Of a DNA stretch of 64,000 bases, positions 32,589 through 35,908 are shown one piece after another. The stretch's first letter is position 1. Each line of letters opens with the position of its first letter. The notes below the pieces were generated by a model that did not search any database, was not told the DNA's origin, and saw nothing but the letters and a program-made list of their open reading frames with translations. Location of the stretch: the NCBI GenBank assembly GCA_009377715.1, contig WHTN01000003.1, positions 14,396 through 78,395 of the forward strand. Reading direction: 5' to 3'. Both the position numbers and the translations under genes were made by a program. The stretch is from Dehalococcoidia bacterium (lineage in GTDB: Bacteria > Chloroflexota > Dehalococcoidia > SM23-28-2 > WHTN01).

Positions 32589-32745
32589 CGTCTAAAAAAC
32601 CTTCCTTAAATGGTTTTTTAGTTCACATAACCACCTTGCCAAGCGTCTAACCTAAGTCTATAATCCACCCGCACAGATGTCCAGCCGATCAAGACCATGT
32701 TTGATACCTATCCCTTCCGGGCTCTTAAACTAGCTAAGTAATTGG

Positions 32746-33447
32746 ATGAGCAGAGTAAGCGATCTTTACCAGCTTCAGGAGACAGACTTGGCGATAGATG
32801 TAGCGACCGCTTCTCTGACCGATATAGAGGAGCGCCTGAGCCACGACGAAGAGGTGGTGGCTGCTAGAGAAGCTGTTGCGTACCTGGAACAGCGCCTTGC
32901 CCATCTCCGCCGGCAGCAGCGAGACGTCGATCTTGACGCGGAAGACCTACGCCGACGGGTGAAAGCGGCTGAGGATAAGCTTTACGGTGGTTCTGTGCGT
33001 AACCCGCGTGAACTTGAGGACTTACAGAAGGATATTCAAGCTCTGACCCACCAGCTTAGGGGGCGTGAGGATGAAGTCCTTGGCCTGATGATGCAGGCAG
33101 AGGAAACGAACGGCGAGTTGGAGAACGCCAAAAGGCAGCTATCTGAGCTTGAAGCCCAGTGGACTGCCCAACATGAGGAACTACTACGCCAGCAGCAGGC
33201 GGTCCGATCGGAACTAGTAACTTTGGAGCAGCAGCGTGTCGGTCAGCTTCCCCGAGTAGACGCGCCTTCGATGTCGCTTTACTCTTCCTTACGCAAGACG
33301 CGACAAGGCAGGGCCGTGGCTCGTGTGCAGCAGGGGATGTGTCAGGGCTGCCGTATAGCGCTCCCTATGACGGTGCTTCAAAAAGCTAGACCCGGCATAG
33401 AACTCGTTCAATGCCCGAGCTGCGAGCGTATCTTATTCGTGAGCTAA
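32746..33447 (+). CDS. COG1579 zinc-ribbon coiled-coil protein (DUF164)
   Basis: Long coiled coil followed by a C4 zinc ribbon (CQGCRIALP...CPSCERILF). Confidence 0.7.
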   Translation: MSRVSDLYQLQETDLAIDVATASLTDIEERLSHDEEVVAAREAVAYLEQRLAHLRRQQRDVDLDAEDLRRRVKAAEDKLYGGSVRNPRELEDLQKDIQALTHQLRGREDEVLGLMMQAEETNGELENAKRQLSELEAQWTAQHEELLRQQQAVRSELVTLEQQRVGQLPRVDAPSMSLYSSLRKTRQGRAVARVQQGMCQGCRIALPMTVLQKARPGIELVQCPSCERILFVS

Positions 33448-33449
33448 CC

Positions 33450-34862
33450 ATGCAAGCGATCGGTTATTTTTACGTCCCAGAGGGGGGCGGCGATGCTCTG
33501 GCTGAGCGCCAGCACGAATTCGCTGCCTTCTGCAAAAAACAGGGCTATGAGATGGCAGCTACTTTCCTCGACGTATCAGGGCGCAATGGCGATATGTCGG
33601 GTTATACCCAGCTACTGGCCTTTCTTAAGCGGCCAGAGCGAGGCATGGTGGTTGTCGTCGTACCCTCACCTGGCGACCTCGGCCGGACGCCGCGCGAGAT
33701 AATGCGGTCCTACTTCGATCTCGACTCGCTTGGCGTAAACGTCGTTTGCCTTGATGGCACCCCCGATCTCGCGCGTGCCGTACTGGCCGCCTGGCCGACC
33801 TTACAGAACGGTCAGGATGCTGGCGAGAAGGTGCGCGATGCCATGCGCCGCAAGGCAATTAAAGGCGAGGTGTTGGGTCGCGCCGCTTATGGCTACAAGT
33901 CCGGCGCACGGCGTCGCTTGCAAATAGTGCCGGCGGAGGCAGCCGTTGTCCGTTACATCTTCCGGCTTTATCTCCGCGACGGCTTGGGAATACGTCTAAT
34001 CGCCCGCCACTTGAATGAAGAAGGCTTCCACACCCGGCGCGGCGGCCTTTGGAGCATGGTCGGTGTGCGCGACATTCTACGGAACCGGGTATATCTCGGC
34101 ACGTACAGCCGGCTCGGCGTGCGCGTTCCCTATAGCCACCCGGCGATCATCTCCCAGGACGACTTCCGTCGGGTGCAGGAGCGTCTGAACTCGAGGCGTC
34201 CTAGCAGCACGAACCGTGAGACGGCGCTTTTCCTGCTTTCAGGGCTGCTGTATTGCGGATCCTGCGGCAACAAGATGACCGGTGTTACTCGCCGTCAGCG
34301 CTGGCAGCGCAGCGGCGACGGCGGCGAGAGAAGCGCCATGTACCGCTATTATCAGTGCCAGTCACGCATCAATCAGAGCGTATGTAGTTACCGTACACAC
34401 AGGGCAAACGACCTAGAGGAAGCGGTCAGACAGGCGCTTTTAGGAAAGCGTGGCACGGTGGTCGAAGCGATGCCCCAGGCTGGCGATGCTGAGGCAGCTC
34501 TGCACGAAGCGCAAAAGCGATGCGACCAGCTTAAGACTAAGATGGCCCGGCTCGAAAAAAGGCTTGAGACCTATTTGGAGGCAGCCGCCACGGGTAGGGT
34601 AAGCTACGAGCGCCTCCGTAATCTGGGGTCATCTATGGCTGAACAGCGCTTGGTCTTGCTCGAAAGCCTGGAAGAAGCGCAGCAACAAGCGCAAAGGCAG
34701 TCCACAGCGGCTGAACGCCTGAAGAAGCGTTCCGAAGCGCTCGTCCAGTTGACCGGGGAATGGGACTACATGACCCCAGTCCAACGTCAGGCGCTTTTAA
34801 GAGACCTGGTCGACCGGATCACGGCGGAAGAGGGCGACATAAAAGTAACCTTGAGCCATTGA
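33450..34862 (+). CDS. Large serine recombinase homolog with a degenerate catalytic motif (predicted inactive)
   Basis: Full domain architecture: resolvase-like N-domain, recombinase domain, zinc ribbon (CGSCGN...YQCQSR...CS) and C-terminal coiled coil. Where the YxRVS nucleophile motif should be, the protein reads IGYFYVPEGGGD (Arg to Tyr, Ser to Pro). Confidence 0.7.
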   Translation: MQAIGYFYVPEGGGDALAERQHEFAAFCKKQGYEMAATFLDVSGRNGDMSGYTQLLAFLKRPERGMVVVVVPSPGDLGRTPREIMRSYFDLDSLGVNVVCLDGTPDLARAVLAAWPTLQNGQDAGEKVRDAMRRKAIKGEVLGRAAYGYKSGARRRLQIVPAEAAVVRYIFRLYLRDGLGIRLIARHLNEEGFHTRRGGLWSMVGVRDILRNRVYLGTYSRLGVRVPYSHPAIISQDDFRRVQERLNSRRPSSTNRETALFLLSGLLYCGSCGNKMTGVTRRQRWQRSGDGGERSAMYRYYQCQSRINQSVCSYRTHRANDLEEAVRQALLGKRGTVVEAMPQAGDAEAALHEAQKRCDQLKTKMARLEKRLETYLEAAATGRVSYERLRNLGSSMAEQRLVLLESLEEAQQQAQRQSTAAERLKKRSEALVQLTGEWDYMTPVQRQALLRDLVDRITAEEGDIKVTLSH

Positions 34863-34869
34863 CGTTCCA

Positions 34870-35295
34870 GTGGTAACAGAGCGCTGTTGGACCGTCTATG
34901 CCGATGGCGCCTCCCGCGGCAATCCCGGCCCAAGTTCTATCGGCGCGGTCGTCTTCGACCACGACCAAACTAAAGTGCACGAGGTCTCCCGCCGCATAGG
35001 CCGTGGCACTAACAACGAGGCCGAGTATAAGGCTGCCATCGCCGGGCTTGAAGCGGCCCTAGCGCTCGGCGCGCCGTGCATAAAGCTGTACATGGACTCC
35101 GAACTTGTCGTTCGCCAGTTGCAGGGCCGTTATCGAGTGCGAAATCCCAGACTTCAGCCCTTGTGGGGACGTATTGCTGACCTGAGGCGTCGCTTCGGTT
35201 CGTTTCAGGCCGTACACGTGCCGCGAACTCAGAACCAGTTAGCGGATGCTCTTGCCAACCGCGCGTTCACCCAAGCCGACGCCGACGTGACATAG
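34870..35295 (+). CDS. rnhA: Ribonuclease HI
   Basis: GTG start. DGASRGNPGP...NNEAEYKA...D...QN pattern of the RNase H catalytic DEDD residues. Confidence 0.75.
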   Translation: MVTERCWTVYADGASRGNPGPSSIGAVVFDHDQTKVHEVSRRIGRGTNNEAEYKAAIAGLEAALALGAPCIKLYMDSELVVRQLQGRYRVRNPRLQPLWGRIADLRRRFGSFQAVHVPRTQNQLADALANRAFTQADADVT

Positions 35296-35311
35296 CTGAT
35301 ATAATATGGTC

Positions 35312-35668
35312 TGGGCCCAGGAGGCTGGGTAGCTGCGGTCGTCGATGGCGACTCAGGAAAGTCCGAGCTCCACCGGACAGCATGCTGGGTAACGCCCAGG
35401 CGGGGTGACCCGACGGAAAGTGCCACAGAAACCATACCGCTCGCCTTAGCGAGTAAGGGTGAAAAGGTGCGGTAAGAGCGCACCAGCGGCCGGGCGACCG
35501 GCCGGCTGGGCAAACCCCATGCGGAGCAAGGCCAAATAGGAGGGCTTAGGTGTCCGGCCCGCCCTCGGGTTGGCTGCTTGAGGCAGTGGGTAACCGCTGT
35601 CCTAGACTAATGGCTACCGTTCGCTTCGGCGGACACAGAACTCGGCTTATAGGCCTGCTGGACCCTCA
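35312..35668 (+). ncRNA. rnpB: RNase P RNA, bacterial type A
   Basis: GGAAAGTCCGAGCTCC (P4), GTGCCACAGAAA, AAGGGTGAAAAGGTGCGGTAAGAGCGCACC, CAAGGCCAAATAGG and the ACAGAACTCGGCTTATAGG 3' region. Ends ~15 nt before a strong terminator. Confidence 0.85.
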
Positions 35669-35676
35669 ACGACGAT

Positions 35677-35709
35677 TAGCGCGCCGCTAGCGGCGCGCTT
35701 TTCTTTTGC
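35677..35709 (+). terminator. Rho-independent terminator after rnpB (GCGCGCCGCTAGCGGCGCGC-TTTTCTTTT)
   Basis: GC-rich 9-bp stem followed by a T-tract. Confidence 0.7.
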
Positions 35710-35719
35710 AGCTTGGTAT

Positions 35720-35893
35720 GTCATCCTGGGCCCTTCGGTAGACTCAGGATGAACCCCGCGAAGGATCTATTTTTGCACCGCGTAAGCTCAGCGAAGAACC
35801 CGACATAACTCATAGCAGCCTAGTTTAATCTGTTTCGAATCCGTTGACACATCGATGATGATCTTCTCCGCTCACCCTGAGCCTGTCGAAGGG
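35720..35893. repeat. Family-B (GTCATCCTGGGCCCTTCGGTAGACTCAGGATGAACCCCGCGAAGGATC) plus family-A (CCGCTCACCCTGAGCCTGTCGAAGGG) repeat copies
   Basis: Same modules as at 9722 and 52623. Confidence 0.6.
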
Positions 35894-35908
35894 CGTTGAT
35901 TTTGTAGA

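What the first reader, a model, noticed from the sequence alone, without database searches (positions are those of the whole stretch)
32746..35709. Coupled operon: COG1579 zinc-ribbon, recombinase-like gene, RNase HI and RNase P RNA
The four units sit on one strand with 2-nt, 7-nt and ~17-nt gaps: the stop at 33447 meets a start at 33450; the stop at 34862 meets a GTG at 34870; rnhA ends at 35295 and rnpB begins at ~35312. The block ends in one strong terminator at 35677-35709. In Actinobacteria, COG1579, RNase HI and rnpB are reported as neighbours. Here an extra large gene with full serine-recombinase architecture is inserted between COG1579 and rnhA and appears translationally coupled to both. 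A conserved nucleic-acid module (zinc ribbon, RNase H, RNase P RNA) carrying a recombinase-derived protein is not a described arrangement.
Basis: partly seen in the sequence, partly recalled or inferred. Interest (0 to 1): 0.7.

Follow-up and report, generated by a model that had tools for sequence, protein, structure and literature searches.

The report
Dead serine integrase in housekeeping operon
A gene that looks like a phage integrase has lost its catalytic residues, is inherited vertically in hundreds of Dehalococcoidia/Chloroflexota species, and always sits fused into a housekeeping operon (zinc-ribbon protein COG1579, RNase H, next to the RNase P RNA gene), so it looks like a mobile-element enzyme turned into a core cellular protein.

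Summary
COG1579 (32746-33447), an LSR-like gene (33450-34862), RNase HI (34870-35295) and rnpB (35317-35665) lie on one strand with 2-, 7- and 21-nt gaps. One promoter (32636-32664) and one terminator (35678-35708) flank them.

In 80/80 related loci from a genome scan (558 species hit), COG1579 sits directly upstream, with a -1 to 4 nt gap in 72. An RNase H gene follows in 79/80, and rnpB follows on the same strand in 69/75 assessable loci.

Three results are new:
- The recombinase is catalytically dead. The Ser10-equivalent is variable and the Arg68-equivalent is absent in 189/189 members. All domains are still under purifying selection (dN/dS 0.06-0.17), and all four Zn cysteines are invariant.
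- In 11 loci RNase HIII replaces RNase HI in the same slot.
- rnpB has its own conserved extended -10 promoter, so it does not depend on operon transcription.

No family member was found in the viral, phage or plasmid collections. No literature describing it was found.

Best reading: an exapted, non-catalytic nucleic-acid-binding LSR that works with COG1579 and RNase H. Its molecular role is inferred, not shown.

The parts
32636..32664 (+). Operon promoter: -35 TTGCCA, 17-nt spacer, -10 TATAAT
   Evidence: Matches the consensus at 11 of 12 positions. The 13-mer AAGTCTATAATCC is exact in 34/85 loci, always once and always ~70-80 nt upstream of the COG1579 start. It occurs once in the 64-kb window.
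32655..32683 (-). Divergent yceD-rpmF promoter (-35 TGGACA, -10 TAGACT). Its -10 box overlaps the operon's -10 box by 2 nt.
   Evidence: Predicted. The conserved plus-strand blocks TAAGTCTA and TTGTCCA in 45 loci are its reverse complement.
32746..33447 (+). COG1579/DUF164 protein: coiled-coil hairpin plus C4 zinc ribbon (233 aa)
   Evidence: PF24481 scores 40.4 bits and PF02591 32.0 bits, both above their cut-offs. It lies upstream of the LSR-like gene in 80/80 scanned loci.
33450..34862 (+). Catalytically dead large-serine-recombinase homologue (dLSR, 470 aa). Dead N-terminal domain 33450-33809; recombinase domain (RD) 33900-34199; zinc-ribbon domain (ZD) 34215-34469; coiled coil 34482-34769.
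   Evidence: Pfam finds Resolvase, Recombinase and Zn_ribbon_recom. The AF2 model has pLDDT 86. The best Foldseek matches are SPbeta, Bxb1, A118 and phiC31 integrases. Catalytic residues are lost. dN/dS is 0.06-0.17.
34870..35295 (+). RNase HI (141 aa, GTG start)
   Evidence: PF13456 scores 83.9 bits and PF00075 49.9 bits. D12/E51/D76 align to E. coli D10/E48/D70. The gene fills the same slot in 68/80 loci and RNase HIII fills it in 11.
35297..35305 (+). rnpB's own extended -10 promoter (TGaTATAAT), starting one base after the rnhA stop codon (35293-95)
   Evidence: Read directly from the sequence. A -10 box at the same position occurs in 55/69 loci, 35 of them with TGn, against a 2.4% background. 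Divergent loci also have one.
35317..35665 (+). RNase P RNA gene (rnpB), bacterial class A
   Evidence: RF00010 scores 304.7 bits against a gathering score of 100, and the full model 1-367 is matched.
35678..35708 (+). Intrinsic terminator: 9-bp stem (8 GC), 4-nt loop, T-tract

Best explanation
The 33450-34862 gene encodes an exapted large serine recombinase, here called dLSR. It keeps the whole integrase scaffold: N-terminal alpha/beta domain, recombinase domain (RD), zinc-ribbon domain (ZD) with a long coiled coil, and C-terminal strands. It has lost the chemistry of recombination.

It is a single-copy, vertically inherited core gene of a large Dehalococcoidia/Chloroflexota lineage. It is made from one promoter and is translationally coupled to the COG1579 zinc-ribbon/coiled-coil protein upstream and to an RNase H gene downstream.

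Inferred mechanism. dLSR binds nucleic acid, most probably duplex DNA, through its nearly invariant, very basic RD and its ZD. It does so without cutting. It acts together with COG1579, possibly through coiled-coil contacts, in a process that needs RNase H activity, that is, handling of RNA:DNA hybrids. rnpB lies next door through deeply conserved synteny but is transcribed from its own promoter.

Shown: conservation, synteny, coupling, loss of catalytic residues, purifying selection, absence from mobile-element collections, and the RNase HI to HIII swap.

Inferred: DNA binding, the partnership with COG1579, and the functional tie to RNase H.
For: Synteny:
- The genome scan found relatives in 558 species genomes. 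In the best 80 loci COG1579 is directly upstream in 80/80, with a gap of -1 to 4 nt in 72.
- RNase HI follows in 68, usually with a gap of -4 to 8 nt.
- The COG1579-dLSR pair persists in relatives with only ~25-32% identity to the window protein (L082-L085, L088, L089).

Loss of catalysis, in 189 non-identical members:
- Ser10-equivalent: T55/S26/A21/R19/P15/Q12 and others.
- Arg68-equivalent: 0 Arg.
- Asp67-equivalent: 9 of 189.
- Arg71-equivalent: 32 of 189.
- The window protein has Y at R8 and P at S10.
- 97 of 104 full-length representative clusters lack YxRVS. Canonical motifs appear only at or below 198 bits.

The protein is still functional:
- dN/dS is 0.06-0.17 overall, 0.01-0.09 in RD and 0.05-0.27 in the dead N-terminal domain.
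- The four Zn cysteines are invariant in 189/189.
- dLSR evolves more slowly (mean distance 0.59) than COG1579 (0.84) or YceD (0.95). Its distances track YceD (r=0.85), which indicates vertical descent.
- The full LSR fold is predicted with pLDDT 86, and SPbeta, Bxb1, A118 and phiC31 integrases are the top PDB matches.

It is not mobile:
- The flanks are housekeeping genes: tatC, nusB, fabG, fabD, rpmF, yceD on one side, HhH-GPD and OCD on the other.
- No att-like flanking repeats were found.
- No member occurs in 2.9 M viral contigs. The best phage and plasmid hits are 22-28% identical.
- The closest active relatives sit in mobile-type contexts.

Link to RNase H:
- In 11/80 loci RNase HIII (TIGR00716, 186.6 bits against a cut-off of 161.2) occupies exactly the RNase HI slot.
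- COG1579-rnhA clustering is known in other phyla (PMC3372290, PMC8469502).
Against: - No binding site, interaction or activity was demonstrated.
- The only strongly conserved non-coding block at the locus is fully explained by two overlapping divergent promoters, not by an operator.
- Some lineages lack an adjacent RNase H (L062, L083-L085, L088). One lacks an adjacent COG1579 (L090/L091). Neither partnership is therefore obligatorily encoded in cis.
- The mirror-tree signal for COG1579-dLSR (r=0.87; partial 0.51-0.66) is only slightly above the controls.
- Y6, D36 and R45, and mostly R8, of the old active-site pocket are retained. Some residual phosphate-binding role cannot be excluded.
Confidence: 0.6

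Rival explanations
1. dLSR is a sequence-specific transcription factor made from an integrase's DNA-binding domains. It regulates the overlapping divergent promoters (yceD-rpmF versus its own operon) and/or the rnpB promoter. It acts independently of COG1579 and RNase H, and its neighbours are only co-expressed.
For: - RD and ZD are the most constrained parts (dN/dS 0.01-0.09; column conservation 0.84).
- The locus carries an unusually conserved promoter block.
- dLSR stays next to yceD and upstream of rnpB even where COG1579 is absent (L090/L091).
Against: - The conserved block is accounted for by -35/-10 elements on both strands.
- No dyad-symmetric ~40-50 bp LSR-type site was seen.
- The near-universal 1-4 nt coupling to COG1579 and the in-slot HI to HIII replacement point to a shared function.
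Confidence: 0.2
2. dLSR is an RNA- or RNase P-related factor. It would bind or help mature the rnpB transcript or another RNA, which would explain the deep linkage to rnpB.
For: - rnpB is on the same strand downstream in 69/75 assessable loci.
- It lies 18-103 nt after dLSR in four loci that have no intervening RNase H: the three divergent loci L083-L085 and L062.
- COG1579 relatives are reported to bind RNA and lie next to rnpB in Borrelia (PMC3372290).
Against: - rnpB has its own promoter.
- Unrelated genes (an ABC transporter, a VTT-domain gene, a 362-aa ORF) are tolerated between dLSR and rnpB.
- Four loci have no rnpB nearby.
- LSR RD and ZD domains are known as duplex-DNA binders (PDB 4KIS and others).
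Confidence: 0.08
3. dLSR is a decoy or guard. It would be a dead integrase that occupies an ancestral attB site near rnpB and blocks integration by related active serine integrases.
For: - Integrase genes normally lie next to their att site.
- The slot between dLSR and rnpB holds variable content.
- Closely related active LSRs exist in similar metagenomes.
Against: - Conservation exceeds that of the housekeeping neighbours across hundreds of species. That is atypical of defence genes.
- PADLOC gave no match for dLSR or RNase HI, and only weak coiled-coil similarity of COG1579 to JetC.
- No conserved att-like site was found.
Confidence: 0.06
4. It is an active site-specific recombinase with non-canonical chemistry, or a decaying prophage/ICE integrase remnant.
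For: - Full LSR architecture.
- PHROG_95 integrase match at 2.5e-72.
- A Thr or Ser occupies the nucleophile position in 81/189 members.
Against: - The nucleophile position is not conserved, and Arg68, Asp67 and Arg71 are lost.
- Strong purifying selection, a fixed length of 464-483 aa, conserved synteny and vertical descent argue against a remnant.
- There is no cargo and no flanking repeats, and no relatives occur in virus or plasmid collections.
Confidence: 0.04

Closest known systems
Large serine recombinases / serine integrases (SPbeta SprA, A118/LI Int, Bxb1 gp35, phiC31 Int)
   Same: Same domain order and fold: N-terminal domain, alphaE helix, recombinase domain, and zinc-ribbon domain with embedded coiled coil. 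Foldseek E-values are 1e-21 to 1e-13. Pfam PF00239, PF07508 and PF13408 all score above their cut-offs.
   Different: - No conserved Ser nucleophile, and Arg68, Asp67 and Arg71 are lost.
- No mobile element, att repeats or cargo.
- Single-copy, syntenic and vertically inherited.
- Sequence identity to phage and plasmid LSRs is only 22-28%.
Host-recruited but catalytically active serine recombinases (XisF, SpoIVCA, Hin; reviewed in PMC8987985)
   Same: Chromosomal recombinases of mobile-element origin that serve the host. XisF is the equal-best NCBIfam match (82.5 bits, on a par with CcrC at 82.3).
   Different: Those enzymes still cut and rejoin DNA, by developmental excision or inversion. This family cannot use the canonical mechanism. 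The XisF cut-off (375 bits) is far from met. The 2022 review mentions no inactive serine recombinase exaptation.
Conserved COG0327(Nif3)-COG1579(DUF164)-COG0328(RNase HI) neighbourhood, with rnpB downstream in Borrelia (PMC3372290; PMC8469502)
   Same: COG1579 with its coiled-coil hairpin and C4 zinc ribbon is followed by rnhA and rnpB.
   Different: A 470-aa dLSR is inserted directly after COG1579, translationally coupled on both sides. No Nif3 gene lies directly upstream; yceD-rpmF diverge instead. RNase HIII can substitute for RNase HI.
Nuclease-dead transposon-derived regulators (for example TnpB-derived TldR). This comparison comes from memory and was not tested here.
   Same: The concept is the same: a mobile-element enzyme loses catalysis, keeps nucleic-acid recognition, and becomes a host factor.
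   Different: The protein superfamily is unrelated. The dLSR target and function are unknown.

Membership tests
Large serine recombinase (functional enzyme) | N-terminal resolvase-type catalytic domain fold | tested here: met
   PF00239 scores 43.5 bits against a cut-off of 23.3. The AF2 model and Foldseek match full-length integrases and isolated catalytic domains.
Large serine recombinase (functional enzyme) | Conserved nucleophilic Ser (YxRxS motif) with Arg8, Asp67, Arg68 and Arg71 | tested here: not met
   The window protein has Y at R8 and P at S10. In the family (n=189) the S10 position is variable, R68 is Arg in 0, D67 is Asp in 9 and R71 is Arg in 32.
Large serine recombinase (functional enzyme) | Recombinase domain (PF07508) plus zinc-ribbon domain with four Cys and a coiled coil | tested here: met
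   PF07508 scores 73.5 bits and PF13408 53.8 bits. C269, C272, C303 and C312 are invariant in 189/189. Helices 347-380 and 386-436 form the coiled coil.
Large serine recombinase (functional enzyme) | Residence in a mobile element or rearranging segment with att sites | tested here: not met
   Housekeeping flanks. No flanking repeats. The same chromosomal slot in 80/80 loci. Absent from viral, phage and plasmid collections.
Large serine recombinase (functional enzyme) | DNA cleavage and strand-exchange activity | not testable with these tools
   This needs biochemistry.
COG1579 / DUF164 (HP0958, CT398, MSMEG_4306 type) | N-terminal coiled-coil hairpin plus C-terminal CxxC...CxxC zinc ribbon | tested here: met
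   PF24481 and PF02591 score above their cut-offs. CQGC...CPSC is seen in the translation. The CdsZ equivalog cut-off is not met (43.8 against 275 bits), so it is a family member but not a CdsZ orthologue.
RNase HI (type 1 RNase H) | RNase H fold with catalytic carboxylates | tested here: met
   PF13456 and PF00075 score above their cut-offs. D12/E51/D76 align with E. coli D10/E48/D70. The fourth carboxylate was read by eye only.
Bacterial RNase P RNA, class A | Covariance-model match above the Rfam gathering score over the full model | tested here: met
   RF00010 scores 304.7 bits against 100, covering model positions 1-367.
Single polycistronic operon including rnpB | No independent promoter for rnpB, so it depends on co-transcription | tested here: not met
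   A conserved, often extended -10 box lies 7-12 nt upstream of rnpB in 55/69 loci. In the window it is TGaTATAAT at 35297-35305. The transcripts themselves were not testable.

The most novel reading that the evidence does not exclude
The integrase scaffold has become the nucleic-acid-recognition subunit of a housekeeping complex with COG1579. That complex would direct or coordinate RNase H action on RNA:DNA hybrids, such as R-loops or primers, or would control the neighbouring rnpB gene. If so, it would give the first functional handle on the widespread COG1579 family, whose mycobacterial member is reported as essential. It would also be the first case of a serine integrase exapted as a non-catalytic core protein.
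Probability: 0.3. Interest if true: 0.8.

Novelty: new variant of a known kind. Interest (0 to 1): 0.65.

Why it matters
Serine integrases are regarded as markers of mobile DNA and are mined as genome-engineering tools. Here a whole family has lost catalysis. It is nevertheless more conserved than its housekeeping neighbours, is fixed in one chromosomal slot in at least 558 species, and is translationally coupled to COG1579.

This matters in three ways:
1. Automated annotation ('recombinase family protein') and prophage or mobile-element predictors will misread these genomes.
2. It is a clean example of an integrase exapted without its chemistry. The 2022 review of mobile-element recruitment that I consulted does not list such a case.
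3. The in-slot RNase HI to HIII replacement ties COG1579, a protein of unknown function reported as essential in M. tuberculosis (PMC5947703), to RNase H biology. That offers a concrete, testable partner.

Tried and rejected
- I looked for att-like direct or inverted repeats flanking the recombinase gene and found only short chance matches.
- I looked for an operator for dLSR in the strongly conserved upstream block (AAGTCTATAATCC ... TTGTCCA). The block is explained by overlapping divergent -10/-35 elements of the operon and of yceD-rpmF.
- PADLOC gave no defence-system match for dLSR or RNase HI, and only weak coiled-coil similarity of COG1579 to JetC.
- phmmer against PDB sequences matched only RD and ZD, because the N-terminal domain is too diverged. 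The fold search was needed to cover it.
- Mirror-tree co-evolution of COG1579 and dLSR gave the highest correlation, but only marginally above controls. I do not use it as evidence of interaction.
- The inverted repeat at 35730-35752 / 35872-35894 has no other copy in the window, and its fold z-score is -1.2. I left it unexplained.
- Literature searches for an inactive or domesticated serine recombinase, and for Rv2228c plus rnpB adjacency, found nothing relevant.
- I did not attempt a complex prediction for COG1579 and dLSR. The structure tool returns no inter-chain confidence and accepts only restricted inputs.
- I considered non-canonical catalysis through Thr or Ser at position 10 and rejected it. 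The position is variable and Arg68 is absent throughout the family.
Full report
**1. Observation**

| Unit | Coordinates (+ strand) | Size and start/stop |
|---|---|---|
| COG1579 | 32746-33447 | 233 aa; stop TAA 33445-47 |
| Recombinase-like gene | 33450-34862 | 470 aa; ATG start; stop TGA 34860-62 |
| RNase HI | 34870-35295 | 141 aa; GTG start; stop TAG 35293-95 |
| rnpB | 35317-35665 | Rfam RF00010, 304.7 bits against 100 |

- The gaps are 2, 7 and 21 nt.
- One strong sigma-70-type promoter (TTGCCA-17-TATAAT, 32636-32664) precedes COG1579. One strong intrinsic terminator (stem 35678-35699 plus a T-tract) follows rnpB. No convincing terminator lies in between.
- A database gene call starts the recombinase at ATG 33411 (P0001, 483 aa). 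Homologue N-termini support 33450.
- The flanks are housekeeping genes: tatC, nusB, fabG, fabD, rpmF and yceD upstream on the opposite strand, and HhH-GPD glycosylase and an OCD-family gene downstream.

**2.

- A protein search returned more than 1,000 homologues. The best 120 are all 386-483 aa and 51-85% identical, and every named one comes from Dehalococcoidia/Chloroflexota MAGs.
- A scan of one genome per GTDB species found relatives in 558 genomes. This is a lower bound, because only two exact peptide patterns seeded the scan. I analysed the best 80 loci.
- COG1579 lies immediately upstream in 80/80 loci. The stop-to-start gap is -1 to 4 nt in 72.
- RNase HI lies immediately downstream in 68, mostly with a gap of -4 to 8 nt.
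- rnpB lies downstream on the same strand in 69 of 75 assessable loci. It is inverted or relocated in 2 and absent nearby in 4.
- rpmF-yceD diverge upstream in most loci.
- The 1.84-billion-representative search shows a broad family with scores declining smoothly from 773 bits.
- Relatives with only ~25-32% identity to the window protein still have COG1579 2-6 nt upstream (L082-L085, L088, L089). rnpB lies 18-103 nt downstream of dLSR in L083-L085 and ~1 kb downstream in L088.
- The closest homologues that do carry a canonical YxRVST motif score 198 bits or less. One of the two examined sits in a mobile-type context with an HTH_3 gene and small ORFs; the other is on a 1.7-kb contig that shows little context. 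Neither has COG1579 next to it.
- The family is absent from 2.9 million IMG/VR contigs. It has only 22-28%-identical relatives in 50,697 phage and 72,556 plasmid records.

**3. What the protein is**

The fold is that of a full large serine recombinase.
- The AlphaFold model built on a 75-sequence alignment is confident (pLDDT 86).
- It shows an alpha/beta N-terminal domain (residues 1-120), a short alphaE helix, a recombinase domain (~150-250), a zinc-ribbon domain (~256-340), a long coiled coil (347-436) and C-terminal strands.
- Foldseek's best PDB matches are full-length SPbeta, Bxb1, A118 and phiC31 integrases (E 1e-21 to 1e-13).

The catalytic residues are gone.

| Resolvase position | State in the family (n=189) |
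|---|---|
| Ser10 (nucleophile) | T55, S26, A21, R19, P15, Q12 and others |
| Arg68 | never Arg (S107, G29, T17 and others) |
| Asp67 | Asp in 9 |
| Arg71 | Arg in 32 |
| Tyr6, Arg8 (166/189), Asp36, Arg45 (160/189) | largely retained |

- The window protein itself has Tyr at R8 and Pro at S10.
- 97 of 104 full-length representative clusters lack the motif.
- No NCBIfam LSR equivalog cut-off is approached: XisF 82.5 against 375 bits, and CcrC 82.3 against 900.

The gene is clearly functional.
- Nei-Gojobori dN/dS in 22 independent pairs is 0.06-0.17 overall. It is 0.01-0.09 in RD, 0.03-0.20 in ZD, 0.05-0.27 in the dead N-terminal domain and 0.09-0.35 in the coiled coil.
- The four zinc cysteines are invariant in 189/189.
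- The mean pairwise distance of dLSR (0.59) is lower than that of COG1579 (0.84) or YceD (0.95).
- dLSR distances track YceD distances (r=0.85), as expected for vertical descent.

**4. RNase H and rnpB**

- In 11 of the 12 loci that lack RNase HI, the same slot is filled by RNase HIII, directly after dLSR and before rnpB. The match is to TIGR00716 at 186.6 bits against a cut-off of 161.2.
- From established knowledge, not tested here, RNase HI and HIII tend to be mutually exclusive in bacterial genomes. An in-place non-orthologous replacement argues that selection keeps an RNase H activity co-expressed with COG1579 and dLSR.
- The link is not absolute. L062, L083-L085 and L088 have no RNase H in the slot. 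L090/L091 keep dLSR next to yceD but have no adjacent COG1579.
- rnpB has its own promoter. In 55/69 loci a TATAAT-like box matching at 5 or more of 6 positions lies 7-12 nt before the estimated 5' end. In 35 it has a TGn extension. The background is 2.4% per 50 nt. Divergent loci show the same.
- In the window this promoter is TGaTATAAT at 35297-35305, beginning one base after the rnhA stop codon.
- Other genes can lie between the protein genes and rnpB: a three-gene ABC transporter in L090, an opposite-strand VTT-domain gene in L088, and a 362-aa ORF in L033.
- rnpB's linkage is therefore a deeply conserved synteny rather than a need for co-transcription. Read-through remains possible, since no terminator intervenes.

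**5. The conserved upstream block**

- The 13-mer AAGTCTATAATCC is exact in 34/85 loci, always once and always at the operon promoter. It is unique in the 64-kb window.
- With the conserved TTGTCCA 12 nt downstream it first looked like an operator.
- It is explained by two overlapping divergent promoters. The plus-strand promoter is TTGCCA/TATAAT. The minus-strand promoter is TGGACA/TAGACT for yceD-rpmF. Their -10 boxes overlap by 2 nt.
- No LSR-type dyad site was found.

**6. Mechanism**

Shown:
- dLSR is a vertically inherited, single-slot, catalytically disabled LSR under strong constraint.
- It is translationally coupled to COG1579 and usually to an RNase H gene.
- All are driven by one promoter and lie next to an independently promoted rnpB.

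Inferred:
- dLSR binds nucleic acid without cutting, through its Arg-rich RD and ZD domains. These are duplex-DNA-binding domains in solved LSR-DNA complexes such as 4KIS.
- It works with COG1579, a coiled-coil and zinc-ribbon protein, in a process that needs RNase H.

Rivals:
- A stand-alone transcription factor for the divergent or rnpB promoters.
- An RNA or RNase P-related factor.
- An attB decoy.
- Residual recombinase activity or a remnant, which is disfavoured.

**7. Comparison and novelty**

- The base neighbourhood is known. DUF164/COG1579 lies next to rnhA in several phyla, rnpB lies downstream of it in Borrelia, and COG0327-COG1579-COG0328 cluster together (PMC3372290, PMC8469502).
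- COG1579 structures exist, but the function is unknown and the M. tuberculosis homologue is reported as essential (PMC5947703).
- I found no description of a catalytically inactive, vertically inherited serine integrase. A 2022 review of mobile-element recruitment lists only active serine recombinases such as invertases and developmental excisionases (PMC8987985). Other searches were empty.
- The literature library is incomplete, so absence of a paper is weak evidence.
- I rate the finding a new variant of a known kind: LSR fold and COG1579-RNase H-rnpB neighbourhood, with a new non-catalytic, core-gene role.

**8. Verdict**

It is corrected on rnpB, which has its own promoter, and extended by the dead active site, the RNase HIII swap and the class-wide vertical inheritance.
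- Interest is 0.65.

Noticed in passing
window 32636-32683: Two divergent promoters overlap: the COG1579 operon on the plus strand and yceD-rpmF on the minus strand. Their -10 boxes share 2 nt. The core 13-mer AAGTCTATAATCC is exact in 34/85 loci and unique in the window. The layout implies mutually exclusive RNA polymerase occupancy between the rpmF/yceD/fab genes and this operon.
   Followed up: yes
L040 7413-8354 (also L034, L042, L047, L048, L050, L054, L057, L058, L059, L064): RNase HIII (TIGR00716, above its cut-off) replaces RNase HI in exactly the same slot between dLSR and rnpB.
   Followed up: yes
L090 5001-9684; L091 2032-5622: This lineage shows the same left-hand synteny as the window (tatC-nusB-fabG-fabD-rpmF-yceD). 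Here dLSR directly faces yceD with no COG1579. A three-gene ABC transporter lies between dLSR and rnpB.
   Followed up: partly
L033 7835-8923: A 362-aa ORF overlaps the rnhA stop codon and lies between rnhA and rnpB. By eye it looks like a SAM-dependent (THUMP-type) RNA methyltransferase. I did not run it against Pfam.
   Followed up: no
window 35730-35752 and 35872-35894: A 23-nt inverted repeat (83% complementary, 119-nt spacer) lies between the rnpB terminator and the HhH-GPD gene. There is no other copy in the window, and the fold z-score is -1.2. It remains unexplained.
   Followed up: partly
window 33411-33449: The public gene call (P0001, 483 aa) starts at ATG 33411 and overlaps COG1579 by 37 nt. 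Homologue N-termini show that the real start is ATG 33450.
   Followed up: yes
L032 8570-8706; L047 8542-8614 and 9794-9866: These loci have lost rnpB from the neighbourhood. A c-di-AMP riboswitch (L032) or tRNA genes (L047) lie in the region downstream of the RNase H gene instead.
   Followed up: no
window 33531-33533 (Cys28 of dLSR): A cysteine in the dead N-terminal domain ([FY]C motif) is invariant in 189/189 family members. It is also present in the closest active LSR relatives, so it is probably a structural feature of this LSR subclade rather than a new active site.
   Followed up: partly
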